From an uncultured Gammaproteobacteria bacterium (lineage in GTDB: Bacteria; Pseudomonadota; Gammaproteobacteria; GCA-002705445; GCA-002716945): a stretch of 47,780 nt of DNA. Location of the stretch: NCBI GenBank assembly GCA_913041905.1, contig CAJWJQ010000003.1, positions 1 through 47,780 on the forward strand, given 5' to 3'. The notes beneath the pieces were generated by a model, which saw only the letters and a list, made by a program, of their open reading frames with translations, was not told the origin of the DNA and made no database searches. Below, one piece after another: positions 25,166-37,006 of this stretch. A program made the position numbers and the translations under genes. Positions within the stretch are counted from its first letter, which is position 1. Each line of letters starts with the position of its first letter.

Positions 25166-26302
25166 TTGAATACACGTGATGCATTACTATTACTGGCTGA
25201 TGGGACTTCTTTTTATGGAAAATCCATAGGTATTAAGGGTATTTCTGTAGGAGAAGTAGTTTTCAATACATCGATGACTGGTTATCAAGAAATAATTACC
25301 GACCCTTCATATCATAGTCAAATTATAACTTTCACAAACCCTCACATTGGTAACACAGGAATCAATCCAGAAGATTTAGAATCAAAAAAAATCCATGCAT
25401 CCGGAATTATTATCAGGGATCAGGAAATACTCGCAAATAACTGGAGGAAAACTGATTTATTAGATAACTTTCTAAAGGAAAATAAAATTGTTGGAATTTC
25501 TGGCATTGATACAAGAAAGCTAACAAAAGTATTGCGAAACAATGGTTCACAAAACGGGTGTATTTTATGTGGAAATAATCCTGACATAAAGACAGCAAAG
25601 AAATCTTTAGATGAATTTCCAGGATTAGAGAATCAAGATTTAGCAATTGAAGTTACTACTAATAAAAATTATAAATGGTCTGAAGTAGTCCATAATATAT
25701 ATGACAAAAATATCCCTAACATAAAAGAAAGTTTTAACGTAGTAGCCTATGATTTTGGTATAAAACATAATATTTTAAGGATCTTAAAAAGTTTTGGTTA
25801 CAATTTAACGGTTGTACCAGCAGATTTACCAGCAAAAGAAGTGCTTAATTTAAAACCAGACGGAGTTTTTTTATCTAATGGTCCAGGAGACCCAAAAGCT
25901 TGTGAATATGCAATTGAAAATATAAAATTATTACTTGAAAATAAAATTCCTTTGTTTGGTATTTGTTTAGGTTTTCAATTATTAGCTCTTGCTTCAGGAG
26001 CAAAAACTAAAAAAATGAAATTTGGTCATCATGGAGCAAATCATCCAGTATTGGATATCGAAAATAAAAAAGTATTGATAACTAGTCAGAACCATGGGTT
26101 TATGGTCGACAATGAAAGTCTGCCTAAACATATAATACCTACACACAAATCATTGTTTGATGATTCTTTACAAGGTTTTGTGGTTGAAAACAGAAAGGCG
26201 TTTGGTTTTCAAGGTCACCCTGAAGCTAGTCCTGGGCCCCATGATATTCATTACATTTTTGAAAAGTTTTTTACATTTATGACACAGAGTAAAAATGCCT
26301 AA
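25166..26302 (+). CDS. carA: Carbamoyl-phosphate synthase small subunit (TTG start)
   Basis: [36 protein letters not shown]. Confidence 0.97.
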
Positions 26303-29300
26303 AAATAAAGATATAAAGAGCGTTTTAATAATAGGAGCTGGCCCGATTATTATCGGACAAGCTTGTGAGTTTGATTATTCTGGAGTTCAAGCCTGTAAAG
26401 CTTTAAAAGAAGAAGGAATAAAGGTTATTTTAGTTAATTCTAATCCTGCCACTATTATGACTGACCCAGATATGGCAGATAAAATTTATATTGAACCAAT
26501 TCACTGGAGAAATATTGAGAAAATTATTATTAAAGAAAAACCTGATGCAATTTTACCAACAATGGGCGGCCAAACTGCTTTGAATACAACCCTCGATTTG
26601 AATCGTCACAAAATTTTAGAAAAAAATAACGTTGAAATCATCGGAGCAAGCATAAATTCTATAGACATGGCTGAAGATAGAGAATTATTTAAAAACGCGA
26701 TGACAGAAATTGGACTAGAAACACCTCTAGCTTATATTGCACATACATATGATGAGGCGTTAGAACATCAAAAAAAGATTGGTTTTCCAATTTTAATTAG
26801 ACCATCTTTCACACTAGGAGGAACAGGCGGAGGTATAGCATACAATATACAAGATTTTGAAACTATAGTTAAAAGAGGCCTTGATTTGTCTCCTACAACA
26901 GAAGTATTAATAGAGGAGTCGGTTATTGGCTGGAAAGAATTTGAAATGGAGGTTGTAAGAGATAAGAATGATAATTGTATTATTGTGTGTTCAATTGAAA
27001 ATATTGATCCAATGGGCATACACACAGGAGACTCTATAACTGTTGCGCCAGCACAAACATTAACTGACAAAGAATATCAAAACCTAAGAAATGCATCAAT
27101 ACAGGTTTTAAGAAAAATTGGGGTAGATACTGGAGGATCTAATGTGCAGTTTGCAATATCACCCGAGAATGGAAGAATATTTGTTATTGAGATGAATCCA
27201 CGTGTTTCAAGATCATCAGCACTAGCATCAAAAGCTACTGGTTTTCCAATTGCTAAAATTGCTGCAAAACTTGCAATTGGTTATTCATTAGATGAATTGA
27301 GAAATGAAATAACAGGCAATGTAATACCTGCATCTTTTGAGCCAAGCATAGATTATGTTGTTACTAAAATGCCAAGATTTGCTTTTGAAAAATTTAAAGA
27401 AGCAAACAATAAATTAACAACTCAAATGAAATCTGTTGGCGAAGTTATGGCTATTGGTAGAAATTTCCAAGAATCATTTCAAAAGGCACTTAGAGGCCTA
27501 GAAATCGGAATTGATGGTTTGGCAAAACCTAAGTTTTCTGGTTTATCTAAAAAAGAAGATTTTGATATAATAAAAAACAAACTTATATCAGCAACTCCTC
27601 AAAGAATACTCTATGTTGCAGAAGCATTTAGGTTAGGTCAAAGCATATCTGATATATATGAATTAACTAAAATAGACCAATGGTTTTTATCACAAATAAA
27701 AGATCTAGTAGAGGAAGAATATAATCTATCAAACCAAAATGTTGCAGATTTAAATAAAGATTGTCTTCTTAATTTAAAACGTAAAGGTTTTTCTGATTCT
27801 TTTATTGCAAACTGTATAAATACCAAGGAAAAGGATGTAAGAAATTTAAGAAAATCATTTAATATTAGCCCAGTCTATAAAAGAGTTGATACCTGCGCTG
27901 CTGAATTTGAAGCTACAACAGCTTATCTGTATTCAACTTATGATCTAGAATGTGAATCTAATCCATCAAATAATAAAAAAATAATGATTCTAGGAGGAGG
28001 ACCAAATAGAATTGGGCAAGGCATTGAATTTGATTATTGTTGTGTTCATGCATCCTTAGCGCTCAGAGACGAAGGTTTTGAAACAATAATGGTTAATTGT
28101 AACCCTGAAACAGTTTCTACAGATTTTGATATCTCAGATAGACTATATTTTGAGCCATTAACATTTGAGGATGTAATGTCGATTATAGATGTAGAAAAAC
28201 CTGATGGAGTGATTGTTCAATATGGTGGGCAAACACCCCTAAAGTTAGCAAATTTACTTAAATCTAATAATGTAAACATTATTGGTACTTCACCAGAAGC
28301 TATAGACACGGCAGAAGATAGAGAGAAATTTAAATTATTGGTCGAAAAGCTAAATCTAACTCAACCAAATAATTCCACAGCAACCAACACAGAAGAAGCT
28401 CTTAAAGTTGCAGCAAAAATTGGTTACCCGCTTGTTGTACGTCCGTCTTATGTGTTGGGAGGACGAGCTATGGAGATAGTGGCAACTAATGATGATTTAA
28501 AAAAATATATGGATGAAGCAGTATCTGTTTCAAATGATTCGCCAGTTTTATTGGATAAATTTTTAAATGATGCTATTGAAGTAGACATAGATATTATATC
28601 TGATGGCAAAAATGTTTTTATAGGTGCAATTATGGAACATATAGAAGAAGCTGGAATCCATTCTGGTGATTCTGGTTGTTCAATTCCTCCGTATACATTA
28701 TCTAGTAAAATACTAGCAAACCTTAGAGAACAAGTAACCAAGCTAGCTTTAGAGTTAAAAGTTATTGGCTTAATGAACGCTCAGTTTGCTATTAAGGACC
28801 AAGAGATATTTTTATTAGAAGTAAATCCTAGGGCATCTAGAACAGCCCCATTTGTATCTAAAGCGATTGGAATACAACTTGCAAAAATCGGAGCTTTAGT
28901 AATGGCAGGAAAAACTCTTAAAGATCTTAAGACAACTAAAGAGATAGTTCCAAAATATTATTCGGTTAAAGAAGCAGTTTTACCATTTTCAAAATTCCCT
29001 GAAGTTGATGTGTTATTAGGGCCAGAAATGAAATCAACAGGTGAAGTTATGGGTATAGGAGACAGTTTTGGAGAAGCATATTTCAAAGCTCAAAGAGCAG
29101 CAAGCGTAATCCTGCCAAAGAAAGGAAATGTATTTTTAAGCGTCAGGGATAAAGATAAACCAGCAATTTGTGATATAGCAAAAGATCTTAAAAATATTGG
29201 TTTTAATTTATATGCAACAAAAGGTACCCAAGCTTATTTAGAGAGTCATAATATTGAATGTTCAAAAATAAACAAAGTTAAAGAAGGCCAGCCTCATATT

Positions 29301-29519
29301 GTAGATATGATAAAAAACGGAGATGTTGACCTAATTATAAATACAACAGAAGGAGCGATATCAATTAAAGACTCATTTTCAATAAGAAAGGAAGCAAATA
29401 ACAATAATGTTTGTTTGACTACTACAATCTCTGGAGCAAAAGCATTTTGTAAAGCTATATTATTTATAGATAATTTTAATGTTACAGATATTCAATCTAG
29501 GCATAATACATTAAATTAG
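26295..29519 (+). CDS. carB: Carbamoyl-phosphate synthase large subunit
   Basis: [44 protein letters not shown] domain. Confidence 0.98.
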
Positions 29520-33976: not shown

Positions 33977-34669
33977 ATGAAATGGAATAAGCAATTTAAA
34001 TATCCAATAAGTAAGCGCATTAATCAATTAGGCGTTAGATGTTATGAAATTAATGGTCAGAAACTACCATCAGTCACAACTGTTTTAAAAGGAACAGAAT
34101 CTGAAGAAAAAAAGAAGTCATTAGAAGAGTGGAGACGCAAAGTAGGCGAGCATGAAGCAGAAAGAATTGTGTCTGAATCATCTAGAAGAGGAACTCAAAT
34201 GCACCAACATTTAGAAGAGTTTTTGATTGGTCAAACCAAGCTAGATTTTGAAGGTTTTGACAATGCCCCTTATCAAATGTCAAAAAAAATTATTGAAGAA
34301 AGTTTAAGCACAAAATTTAATGAAATATGGGGTGCTGAAGTAAACGTCCATTTCCCTGATTTATATGCAGGTACAGCAGATGCTTGTGGTATATATAATG
34401 GAGCTGAAAGTATTCTTGATTTTAAACAATCAAATAAACCTAAACAAAGAAATTGGCTTGATGATTATTTCCTACAGGTAGCAGCATATTCTTTGGCTCA
34501 TGACAAAACTTATAATACTCAAATAACACAGGGAGTTATTTTAATATGTACACCACCACCGACAATCCAATTCCAAGAATTTATAATAAAAGATGAAGAG
34601 TTAAAAAACTTTCAGATGATTTTCCTCCAAAAGGTTGAAGAATATAAACGTATGCAAAAATTAATATGA
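33977..34669 (+). CDS. Phage-like PD-(D/E)XK exonuclease (MGME1/RecB-nuclease-like)
   Basis: LPSVTTVL..W...VG, RGT.MH..LE, E..V, YAGTAD, ILDFK, LQ.AAY motifs. Confidence 0.8.
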   Translation: MKWNKQFKYPISKRINQLGVRCYEINGQKLPSVTTVLKGTESEEKKKSLEEWRRKVGEHEAERIVSESSRRGTQMHQHLEEFLIGQTKLDFEGFDNAPYQMSKKIIEESLSTKFNEIWGAEVNVHFPDLYAGTADACGIYNGAESILDFKQSNKPKQRNWLDDYFLQVAAYSLAHDKTYNTQITQGVILICTPPPTIQFQEFIIKDEELKNFQMIFLQKVEEYKRMQKLI

Positions 34670-35476: not shown

Positions 35477-37006
35477 ATGAAAATATTTGGAACAGATGGA
35501 ATAAGAGGTAAATATGGATCATTTCCAATAACCAAAGAAGATATTTTTTATTTAGGGCAATCATTAGTTGAAGTACTTAGAATTAAGGATGACGCGATAT
35601 TTTTTATTATTTCAAATGATGGAAGAGAGTCAGGCATATTTCTTCAGGATGCTCTATCATCAGGTATTAGAAAAGTAGGTGGCGAAGTAACTCTAGTTGG
35701 CATTAATCCAACTCCTATAGTTGGCTATGCTACAAAGTGTATTAATGAAATGTTGATCGTAGAGCATTGTCCTACGGTTGGTCCTAAAATGATATCTTGC
35801 TTTGGTGTTCAAATTACAGCTTCACATAATCCATTTTCCGATAATGGCATAAAAATATTTAATTCTAACGGACAGAAAATATCTGCTGAACTTGAGAGCA
35901 AAATAGAAGCATGTTTTTCCAAGCTCAAAAATCTGGACCAGCCAAAATATGTTAGAAAATTTAGATCACCTGAAATGAAATCAACTGGAGAGGTCATGGG
36001 ATTAGAGCGCCCATGGAATGAAATCTTTGATAATGCAATGAGCCCATCAAGGATGTATAAAAACATGTTATTACACATCTTTGATAATGAGCTAAATATT
36101 TCCAGTCAGGAAAAAAAGATAAAAATCATGATTGATTGTGCCAATGGTGCTTATTCTCCATATATTGAAAGCATGTTTAATCTTTTCCCAAATTATATTG
36201 TCGTACCTATTTATAACAAGCCTAATGGAGTTAATATCAACTTAAGCTGTGGCGCTACTAAACCAGAAGTCTTGAAAGAAGAGCTAATTCAGTACAATAA
36301 ATCTAACAAAGATCAAGTTGATTTTGGAGCATCCTATGATGGCGATGGAGATAGAGTTATATTTATTACGAAAAAGGGAAATATTGTAAATGGAGATCAA
36401 ATACTATTTATTTTTTCTAAATATCTTAAAGAGGTTGAAAATTATAATGGCGCAGTTGTAGGCACATCTATGACAAACTTTGGCATACAAAAAGCATATG
36501 ATGAAATTGGCATCAATCTCATTAAAACTGATGTTGGAGATAAATATGTTTTAGAAAAAATGAAAGAAATACATTCAATAATTGGCGGGGAATCATCAGG
36601 CCATATTATATTTAATCATCTTGATTATTATCTTTATACAGAGGAAGCAATTCATGGAAAAGAAGATCCTTATCCAATAGGAGACTCTCTTCTTACAACA
36701 CTGTATTTATTGAAAATTATGAATTATTATAAAAATAATATTTCATTAGATGACATGATAGAATCTATACCTATTACACCCAGCAGGCTATTTAATCAGA
36801 AAGTAATTAATAAAACTGAATTTTTATCAGACAAGCATAATAAAAAAGTTTTTGCTACATTAGTAAATGAGATTGAAGGTAATGGTAGAATTCTTATAAG
36901 ACCTTCTGGCACAGAAAACTTAATCAGAGTCTTAATAGAACATAGAGATGTTAATAAAATAGACGAACTTGAAATGTATTTCTATGATAATATAAAACAA
37001 AAATAA
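35477..37006 (+). CDS. glmM: Phosphoglucosamine mutase, enlarged by in-frame insertions (509 aa)
   Basis: FGTDGIRG, TASHNP, DCANGA, DGDGDR, VGDKYV, GGESSGH, RPSGTE; folP-glmM-tpiA order. Confidence 0.9.
   Translation: MKIFGTDGIRGKYGSFPITKEDIFYLGQSLVEVLRIKDDAIFFIISNDGRESGIFLQDALSSGIRKVGGEVTLVGINPTPIVGYATKCINEMLIVEHCPTVGPKMISCFGVQITASHNPFSDNGIKIFNSNGQKISAELESKIEACFSKLKNLDQPKYVRKFRSPEMKSTGEVMGLERPWNEIFDNAMSPSRMYKNMLLHIFDNELNISSQEKKIKIMIDCANGAYSPYIESMFNLFPNYIVVPIYNKPNGVNINLSCGATKPEVLKEELIQYNKSNKDQVDFGASYDGDGDRVIFITKKGNIVNGDQILFIFSKYLKEVENYNGAVVGTSMTNFGIQKAYDEIGINLIKTDVGDKYVLEKMKEIHSIIGGESSGHIIFNHLDYYLYTEEAIHGKEDPYPIGDSLLTTLYLLKIMNYYKNNISLDDMIESIPITPSRLFNQKVINKTEFLSDKHNKKVFATLVNEIEGNGRILIRPSGTENLIRVLIEHRDVNKIDELEMYFYDNIKQK
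36023..36089 (+). repeat. 13-bp direct repeat inside glmM, 54 nt apart (IFDN twice)
   Basis: atctttgataatg at 36023-36035 and 36077-36089. Confidence 0.75.

What the first reader, a model, noticed from the sequence alone, without database searches (positions are those of the whole stretch)
35969..36001. An 11-residue CarB signature peptide sits inside GlmM, differing only at synonymous sites
Seen: GlmM aa 165-175 [11 protein letters not shown] is identical to CarB aa 910-920 (29022-29054). DNA is cct gaa atg aaa tca act gga gag gtc atg gga versus cca gaa atg aaa tca aca ggt gaa gtt atg ggt: 27/33 identical, all six differences at third positions. Known: this is a highly conserved CarB motif and not part of GlmM; it lies in the variable linker after GlmM domain 1. 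Inference: chance is very unlikely. Either a 30-45 bp piece of another organism's carB was captured in frame (micro-scale transfer, as in short-patch illegitimate recombination), or an old internal copy has been kept by selection on the peptide, for example as a mimic or interaction motif linking carbamoyl-phosphate and UDP-GlcNAc metabolism.
Basis: partly seen in the sequence, partly recalled or inferred. Interest (0 to 1): 0.82.

Follow-up and report, generated by a model that had tools for sequence, protein, structure and literature searches.

The report
CarB signature peptide inside GlmM loop
An essential cell-wall enzyme of a tiny marine bacterium carries, in a floppy surface loop, eleven residues identical to the hallmark motif of an unrelated enzyme, most likely a scrap of another organism's gene pasted in by a rare copying accident and probably without function.

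Summary
GlmM aa 165-175 and CarB aa 910-920 are both [11 protein letters not shown], 27/33 nt identical, with all six differences at third positions. The peptide opens a 19-codon insertion (35969-36025) that the nearest known GlmM (80% identical, L033) and 28 family or class relatives lack. It lies between Pfam domains I and II, in a loop that AlphaFold2 models as coil with pLDDT about 50.

It is not an assembly artefact. Nine protein variants of 509 aa carry it, and contigs from four runs bridge it without indel or joint.

Chance is unlikely: about 2.6e-7 for such an insert against this proteome.

The resident carB is not the visible template. Six of 9 degenerate codons differ, where at most 2.6 are expected since the split from the sister (P about 0.013). 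In addition, 27 of 32 relatives' carB genes are nearer to the patch than the resident one.

No carB shares the flanks. One 394-nt marine contig matches 38/39 nt.

Best reading (about 0.5): a short patch templated on a non-resident carB, now neutral loop filler. Selection for a mimic finds no support.

The parts
35477..37006 (+). glmM (phosphoglucosamine mutase), 509 aa, with three lineage-specific loop insertions
   Evidence: All four PGM_PMM Pfam domains are present. TIGR01455 scores 320 bits, below its 447.55 cut-off. The columns invariant across 59 GlmM sequences are kept, including T114-A-S-H-N118, D288-G-D-G-D-R293, G370-G-E-S-S-G-H376 and R475-x-S-G-T-E480. The best solved relative is 3pdk. 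The gene sits in an rlmE/ftsJ - ftsH - ORF - folP - glmM - tpiA - secG cluster.
35969..36001 (+). 11 codons coding [11 protein letters not shown], identical in peptide to the CarB motif
35969..36025 (+). 19-codon insertion ([19 protein letters not shown]) relative to the nearest known glmM (L033:2473-3897)
   Evidence: Codon alignment and protein alignments. The gap placement is MAFFT's, in a poorly alignable region.
35968..36006 (+). Stretch on which short contigs with carB-like flanks, from other organisms in marine metagenomes, lie (3-7 mismatches; one contig with 1)
   Evidence: summed contig depth is 110-270 here against 6-8 over the rest of the gene. Loose ends read as CarB flanks (KFPNVDVLLG before, IDKDFG... 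behind; my translation of the printed consensus).
35933..36013 (+). Coil between domains I and II (aa 153-179), low model confidence
   Evidence: no secondary structure over aa 153-179; block pLDDT 68, 50, 51; segments 166-168 and 173-177 are below 50.
26295..29519 (+). carB (carbamoyl-phosphate synthase large subunit), 1074 aa
   Evidence: NF003671 scores 1726.7 bits and TIGR01369 scores 1558.1 bits. carA lies just upstream at 25166-26302.
29022..29054 (+). Resident CarB motif [11 protein letters not shown]
35750..35791 (+). GlmM loop insertion 1 (about aa 92-105). The sister has one of similar length but with a different sequence.
   Evidence: block pLDDT 71-78.
36623..36664 (+). GlmM loop insertion 3 (aa 383-396, DYYLYTEEAIHGKE), absent from the sister
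   Evidence: block pLDDT 58-62.
36023..36089 (+). 13-nt exact direct repeat ATCTTTGATAATG (36023-36035 and 36077-36089, 54 nt apart, in frame, IFDN twice) in the same loop region
   Evidence: 1.5% of 281-nt windows of this genome hold an exact repeat of 13 nt or more.

Best explanation
A short stretch of a carB gene was written in frame into the unconstrained loop between domains I and II of glmM. The stretch covers at least the 33 nt coding [11 protein letters not shown] and perhaps 39 nt (35968-36006). The event was an illegitimate, template-directed one of the microindel kind, in which an ectopic single strand is built into a replicating gene.

The template was not the resident carB as it now stands. 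Most likely it was DNA of another AT-rich marine bacterium.

The patch then went to fixation in this species as tolerated loop filler. GlmM keeps all its catalytic loops, and the peptide probably does nothing.

Shown: the identity, the insertion, its fixation, its place in a low-confidence coil, and the lack of any special likeness to the resident carB DNA. Inferred: the carB origin, the foreign source, the mechanism and the neutrality.
For: 1. The peptide match is far beyond chance. One 11-mer was seen against 0.0054 expected genome-wide, and 2.6e-7 is expected for a 19-aa insert. Only 0.24% of expected chance matches are this improbable in composition.
2. It sits wholly inside a 19-codon insertion. 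That insertion is absent from the sister at 80% identity (P0004, P0005, L033) and from 28 of 28 full-length relatives aligned.
3. The peptide is coded once per genome in 280 of the 282 class genomes that code it at all, out of 401 searched. Only G000 and one other genome show two matches. All 66 proteins retrieved by word search with the GlmM loop are CarB. The direction is therefore carB to glmM.
4. The surrounding loop evolves about neutrally. Between the two lineages 60-78% of residues differ there, while 96 of 369 conserved codons differ synonymously. Eleven unchanged residues therefore imply a fairly recent arrival.
5. A recent arrival from the resident carB predicts at most 2.6 synonymous differences in 9 degenerate codons. 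Six are seen (P = 0.012-0.014).
6. By hand count of the rows, 27 of 32 family carB genes are nearer to the patch (3-5 differences) than the resident one (6). The resident and same-genus carB differ from each other at only 2 of 9.
7. A 394-nt contig in run X3 lies on 35968-36006 with 1 other letter in 39, with the same limits as the carB-type contigs.
8. Microindels of 3 to about 100 bp, templated by intra- or extragenomic single strands, are described for Acinetobacter baylyi. They are suppressed there by RecA, DprA, RecFOR, RecJ and ExoX (passages read). In this 94%-complete assembly dprA and recJ were not found.
9. The same loop holds a 13-nt exact in-frame direct repeat. This is a weak hint of other templated patches.
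Against: - No donor is identified. The exact 33-mer is in none of the genome contigs species representatives.
- The exact 23-mer occurs in 7 scattered taxa, with 32/33 identity in a Bacillus (L047). Near-identity can therefore arise from codon coincidence alone.
- From the family codon frequencies (hand calculation), a carB of similar codon usage matches all 9 degenerate codons with probability about 8e-4, and 8 or more with about 1.2e-2. Among the hundreds of carB variants in four metagenomes, one 38/39 match is only suggestive. Which letter differs is not shown, and the contig was not seen to be carB.
- Similarity does not run into the flanks at the DNA or protein level. The remaining 8 codons of the insertion (LERPWNEI) are unexplained.
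- The junctions cannot be examined for microhomology, because the pre-insertion sequence is unknown.
- GC3 of the insert does not stand out from its neighbourhood or from the sister, so composition gives no sign of foreign origin.
- comEC was not found, so uptake of foreign DNA by transformation has no support in this assembly.
Confidence: 0.5

Rival explanations
1. Old copy of the resident carB, kept by purifying selection on the peptide (for example as a mimic or interaction motif).
For: Eleven of 11 residues are identical, with differences only at synonymous sites. The insert is invariant in 9 protein variants except R178H in one, outside the 11-mer. The suppressors of intragenomic microindels dprA and recJ were not found.
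Against: - It is absent from the 80%-identical sister and from 28 of 28 other relatives, so an old origin needs repeated loss.
- The patch DNA is farther from the resident carB (6 of 9 codons) than from 27 of 32 relatives' carB genes (hand count).
- The region is modelled as coil with pLDDT about 50.
- From recall, in CarB this motif is buried and lines the carbamate tunnel. It is not a surface contact (not tested here).
- The population is at least 99% identical throughout, with only 3 variable positions in 1530 nt over four runs. Invariance of the insert therefore says nothing.
Confidence: 0.08
2. Chance: a fast-drifting loop happened to spell the CarB motif.
For: - At the DNA level the two copies are as different as independent back-translations. 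Six of 9 codons differ, against a mean of 4.5 for 32 relatives' carB genes (hand count).
- The longest exact DNA match to carB is 14 nt, no better than chance hits elsewhere in the genome.
- The flanks show nothing.
- The scan looked at very many windows.
Against: The expectation is 2.6e-7 for this insert against the proteome, and 0.0054 for all pairs in the genome. Of that, 0.24% is as improbable in composition, giving about 1.3e-5 per genome. By my rough arithmetic (no call), about 10,000 genome equivalents compared only within windows give about 0.005 expected. The match also falls exactly in a lineage-specific insertion.
Confidence: 0.1
3. Recent neutral copy of the resident carB, which lies 7 kb upstream on the same strand.
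For: The two genes are close and on the same strand. dprA and recJ were not found.
Against: Six of 9 degenerate codons differ, where at most 2.6 are expected for the whole time since the split from the sister (P = 0.012-0.014). No DNA similarity beyond a 14-mer.
Confidence: 0.03
4. Assembly or binning chimera.
For: The bin is imperfect. recA occurs twice, and several contig pairs code near-duplicate proteins.
Against: - The exact 509-aa protein is on record from 8 contigs, and its cluster has 9 members, all 509 aa.
- 17 runs of 13 studies hold at least half of the gene's sampled words.
- Contigs of 2645, 1234, 1234 and 819 nt in four runs cross the insert with no indel and no joint. X4 and X5 give near-identical figures and may be one data set.
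Confidence: 0.01

Closest known systems
[quoted passage not shown] Source: Liljegren et al., bioRxiv 10.1101/2023.11.22.568220, passages read, citing Harms et al. 2016, which I did not read.
   Same: A heterologous patch in the stated size range (3 to about 100 bp). The template can be intragenomic or foreign. The result is a small insertion-deletion of unrelated sequence.
   Different: Here the case is a fixed natural variant, not a laboratory revertant. No donor is in hand. Microhomologies at the two crossovers cannot be read. The patch is in frame and in sense, and preserves a recognisable 11-residue motif. Uptake genes (comEC, dprA) were not found.
Phosphoglucosamine mutase GlmM (TIGR01455; solved structures 3pdk, 7ojr, 6gyz)
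   Same: Four PGM_PMM domains, the catalytic loops and the folP-glmM neighbourhood.
   Different: 509 aa, against 440-483 aa for most relatives seen here. There are three loop insertions. The score falls below the NCBIfam cut-off. The alignment to 3pdk breaks over aa 150-214.
CarB carbamoyl-phosphate domain motif [11 protein letters not shown]
   Same: Identical peptide. It is coded in 282 of 401 class genomes.
   Different: In GlmM it has none of the CarB context and is modelled as disordered. Its role in CarB, lining the carbamate tunnel, is recalled and was not checked: the paper sought was not held.

Membership tests
GlmM (phosphoglucosamine mutase) | Four PGM/PMM domains I-IV in order | tested here: met
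   PF02878 aa 2-151, PF02879 aa 194-301, PF02880 aa 305-428, PF00408 aa 440-502.
GlmM (phosphoglucosamine mutase) | Catalytic serine loop, metal loop, sugar loop and phosphate loop conserved | tested here: met
   A115 S116 H117 N118; D288 G289 D290 D292 R293; G370 E372 S374 G375 H376; R475 S477 G478 T479 are invariant across 59 sequences. The functional names of the loops are from recall.
GlmM (phosphoglucosamine mutase) | Score above the NCBIfam equivalog cut-off (TIGR01455, 447.55 bits) | tested here: not met
   320 bits. GlmM is still the best family by far, and the shortfall fits the three insertions and the fast divergence of this family.
GlmM (phosphoglucosamine mutase) | Enzyme activity | not testable with these tools
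   Needs an assay or complementation.
SPDIR-type templated microindel | Patch of 3 to about 100 bp of heterologous sequence | tested here: met
   33-39 nt are carB-like, within a 57-nt insertion.
SPDIR-type templated microindel | An identifiable donor with the same DNA | tested here: inconclusive
   Resident carB: 27/33. No exact 33-mer in genome contigs. One metagenome contig at 38/39 whose sequence I could not read.
SPDIR-type templated microindel | Microhomology between donor and recipient at both crossovers | not testable with these tools
   The pre-insertion loop is unknown, and the sister is too diverged here. An 11/12 repeat, TGAAATGAAATC / TGGAATGAAATC at 35971 and 36014, is at chance level for the region by my estimate.
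CarB | Homology beyond the motif | tested here: not met
   GlmM against CarB by BLASTP gives only E = 0.35 and 0.60. The flanks are unlike at protein and DNA level.

The most novel reading that the evidence does not exclude
The CarB tunnel peptide is kept in GlmM because it works. For example, a displayed copy of a CarB segment could bind a partner of CarB, or CarB itself, and couple carbamoyl-phosphate supply to UDP-GlcNAc synthesis in a genome too small for ordinary regulators.
Probability: 0.05. Interest if true: 0.8.

Novelty: new member of a known kind. Interest (0 to 1): 0.4.

Why it matters
If the reading holds, this is a natural, fixed example of a heterologous gene scrap written in frame into an essential enzyme. 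The assembly shows no dprA or recJ, two of the functions that hold such events down in the laboratory model. It would show that microindels leave recognisable traces in wild genomes, and that conserved motifs can serve as tracers for them.

It also carries a practical warning. The 39-nt stretch pulls in short contigs with carB-like flanks from many other organisms, so read mapping and variant calling over this part of glmM will mislead.

Tried and rejected
- **Composition as a sign of foreign origin.** The insert has rare codons (GTC 7%, CGC 3%, ATC 7% of their families) and 8 of 20 G/C-ending codons, which puts it in the top 3.5% of genome windows. With Met and Trp left out, GC3 of 0.23-0.35 is like the neighbourhood and like the sister. 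Dropped.
- **A DNA template elsewhere in the genome.** I searched with the insert, the whole variable region and the other two insertions. Only chance-level hits of 12-21 nt came back.
- **CarB proteins sharing the flank.** 66 scored of 270 candidates. The best has 16 of 52 positions identical, or 14 of 20 over the insert (P0177). The word index may not have passed all CarBs.
- **Viral contigs.** The 23-mer was not found.
- **Earlier findings of this scan.** Nothing by place, words or sequence.
- **The 12-nt near-repeat at 35971/36014 as a junction signature.** Spacing is 43 nt, not a multiple of three, and the repeat is not at the patch end. At chance level. Dropped.
- **Codon arguments from the class sample**. 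Most of those genomes are G+C-rich and so are poor controls. The family sample was used instead.
- 22, 40 and 44. Each was corrected and repeated.
- **Paper PMC2847351** on the carbamate tunnel was not held. The passages I read of the CPS1 structure paper PMC4655335 (the 11 places holding the term 'carbamate tunnel') do not name the motif residues.
- **Rows dropped.** L023, a 220-aa fragment covering only aa 275-507, was left out of the alignment. In one search, L049 gave no motif by my regular expression and was not compared. Supplements were not consulted.

Full report
**What is there**

The window carries carA-carB (25166-29519). After two genes on the other strand comes the cluster rlmE/ftsJ, ftsH, an unassigned 230-aa ORF, folP, glmM, tpiA and secG.

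- glmM (35477-37006) codes 509 aa with all four PGM/PMM domains.
- Its TIGR01455 score is 320 bits, below the 447.55 cut-off.
- The columns invariant across 59 GlmM sequences are all kept.
- The best solved relative is 3pdk.
- carB is a full-length, high-scoring CarB.
- The assembly has 1.15 Mb in 101 contigs and 30% G+C, and is estimated 94% complete.

**The observation**

It is exact. [11 protein letters not shown] is at GlmM aa 165-175 (35969-36001) and at CarB aa 910-920 (29022-29054). The DNA is 27/33 identical, and all six differences are at third positions. In six frames of the whole assembly the 11-mer occurs nowhere else.

**Is it chance?**

I took 1180 crude ORFs and kept pairs without a BLASTP hit at E <= 1e-3, leaving out matches that touch an ORF end.

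- Exact shared peptides were 405 of 7 aa, 32 of 8, 4 of 9, none of 10, and this one of 11.
- The expectation for 11 aa is 0.0054.
- Only 0.24% of that expectation comes from 11-mers as improbable in composition as this one.
- A 19-aa insert has 2.6e-7 expected matches against the proteome.
- Allowing roughly for the size of the whole scan (my arithmetic, no call), I get an expectation of the order of 0.005.

Chance is unlikely but not excluded.

**Where it sits**

The peptide opens a 19-codon insertion (35969-36025, [19 protein letters not shown]).

- The insertion is missing from the nearest GlmM proteins known. These are P0004 and P0005 (475 aa), 80% identical in the alignment and 74-75% by BLASTP. 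The DNA of P0005 is L033:2473-3897.
- It is also missing from 28 of 28 full-length relatives from the family and class. One 220-aa fragment, L023, was left out of that alignment.
- Among the best 120 of 8000 scored database proteins, only the query's own cluster is 509 aa long.

This GlmM has two further lineage-specific loop insertions, at about aa 92-105 and at aa 383-396. In an AlphaFold2 model (mean pLDDT 89, pTM 0.90) all three are low-confidence. Residues 153-179 are coil with pLDDT about 50. The alignment to 3pdk breaks over aa 150-214.

Between this lineage and the sister, the stretches aa 81-105 and aa 151-214 differ at 60-78% of residues. The rest differs at 0-25%. These loops therefore drift at about the neutral rate.

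**Not an artefact**

- The exact protein is on record from 8 contigs. Its 90% cluster has 9 members, all 509 aa and all carrying the insert. One has R178H, outside the 11-mer.
- Seventeen runs of 13 studies, marine or seawater metagenomes, hold at least half of the gene's sampled words.
- Four of those 17 runs, from four studies, were laid on the gene. Contigs of 2645, 1234, 1234 and 819 nt cross the insert with no indel and no joint. X4 and X5 give near-identical figures and may be one data set. These are contigs, not reads.

**Where did it come from?**

The resident carB shows no special likeness.

- The longest exact DNA match is 14 nt, no better than chance hits elsewhere in the genome.
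- The two glmM lineages differ synonymously at 96 of 369 conserved degenerate codons (26%). A copy made from the resident carB after their split should therefore differ at no more than about 2.6 of the 9 degenerate codons. It differs at 6 (P = 0.012-0.014).
- I counted the rows by hand. The 32 other family carB genes differ from the patch at 3 codons (7 genomes), 4 (11), 5 (9), 6 (2) or 7 (3).
- The resident carB, at 6, is farther from the patch than 27 of those 32.
- It differs from the same-genus carB at only 2 of 9 codons. The codons of this lineage's motif have therefore been stable, and they are not those of the patch.

An own-copy origin would then have to be old, lost repeatedly and held by selection. 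Nothing supports that. The loop is modelled as disordered. From recall only, the motif in CarB is buried in the carbamate tunnel rather than exposed. The population is too uniform to test selection: 3 variable positions in 1530 nt over four runs.

**A foreign carB?**

- All 66 longer proteins retrieved with the loop are CarB, but none shares anything beyond the 11-mer. The best has 14 of 20 positions over the insert.
- At the DNA level, 18 carB loci from relatives and from the 23-mer hits show 16-20 of 45 identities upstream, 9 of them in the motif's own first three codons. Downstream they show 17-27 of 60. That is background for this composition.
- The exact 33-mer is in none of the species representatives of genome contigs.
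- The 23-mer occurs in 7 scattered taxa, one of them a Bacillus at 32/33. Codon coincidence alone can therefore come that close.
- In a class sample, 282 of 401 genomes code the peptide. Six besides G000 lie within 3 mismatches of the 33-mer, and none within 2. These tallies include the unpublished genomes G075, G177, G331 and G343.

One positive lead remains. In the metagenomes, 35968-36006 draws many short contigs of other organisms, and their loose ends read as CarB flanks. Summed depth there is 110-270, against 6-8 over the rest of the gene. Most of these contigs have 3-7 mismatches.

One 394-nt contig in X3 has a single mismatch in 39 nt, with the same limits as the carB-type contigs. I could not read its sequence. 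From the family codon frequencies (hand calculation), a similar carB would match all nine degenerate codons with probability about 8e-4. Among some hundreds of variants, one such contig is suggestive, perhaps tenfold in favour of capture, but it is not proof.

Composition gives no help.

**Mechanism**

The known process that fits is the templated microindel (SPDIR). An ectopic single strand, intragenomic or taken up, anneals at microhomologies and is built into the nascent strand, giving patches of 3 to about 100 bp. In Acinetobacter baylyi it is held below about 1e-12 by RecA, DprA, RecFOR, RecJ and ExoX (passages read; Harms et al. 2016 is cited there and was not read).

- In this assembly recA and recR are present. 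dprA, recJ and comEC were not found (the assembly is 94% complete, so absence is not shown).
- Lack of dprA and recJ would make microindels more likely.
- Lack of comEC speaks against transformation as the route for foreign DNA. This is a real weakness of the foreign-donor version.
- The loop also holds a 13-nt exact in-frame repeat 54 nt apart. 1.5% of genome windows of that size have one as long. This is a weak hint of other templated patches.
- The crossovers cannot be read, because the sister is too diverged in the loop.

**Verdict**

The finding is real and non-random. It is most likely a carB-templated patch from a template other than the resident gene, fixed as neutral filler in a tolerant loop (about 0.5). 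The rivals, with my odds:

- Chance: about 0.1.
- An old own copy kept by selection: about 0.08.
- A recent own copy: about 0.03.
- An artefact: about 0.01.
- The remainder is a carB origin whose source cannot be named.

It is a new natural instance of a known kind of mutation, of moderate interest.

Noticed in passing
window 35750-35791 and 36623-36664: GlmM has two more lineage-specific loop insertions (about aa 92-105 and aa 383-396). The second lies a few residues after the GGESSGH loop. Neither has a detectable template in the genome, and both are low-confidence in the model.
   Followed up: partly
window 33977-34669 (+): A 230-aa ORF between ftsH and folP has no Pfam family at E <= 1e-5.
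   Followed up: no
G000 contigs C7:11337-12125 and C40:2069-2857: Two full-length recA genes are present in a 1.15-Mb assembly. Several contig pairs (C70/C79, C54/C64) also code proteins that share exact runs of 20-99 aa. The bin probably holds strain variants or a second organism.
   Followed up: no
G000 whole assembly: comEC (PF03772), dprA (PF02481) and recJ (TIGR00644) were not found. recR and recA were found. The assembly is 94% complete, so absence is not shown.
   Followed up: partly
window 36023-36089 and 36046-36085: There is a 13-nt exact in-frame direct repeat (IFDN coded twice, 54 nt apart) and an overlapping 87% palindrome inside the hypervariable glmM linker.
   Followed up: partly
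window 35968-36006: In marine metagenomes this 39-nt stretch recruits short contigs with carB-like flanks from many other organisms. Summed depth is 110-270, against 6-8 for the rest of the gene. This is a trap for read mapping and variant calling.
   Followed up: yes
family relatives G001-G052: GlmM is only 40-50% identical even between genera of this one family of roughly 1-Mb genomes, and 43% to the same-genus representative. That is unusually fast divergence for a housekeeping enzyme.
   Followed up: no
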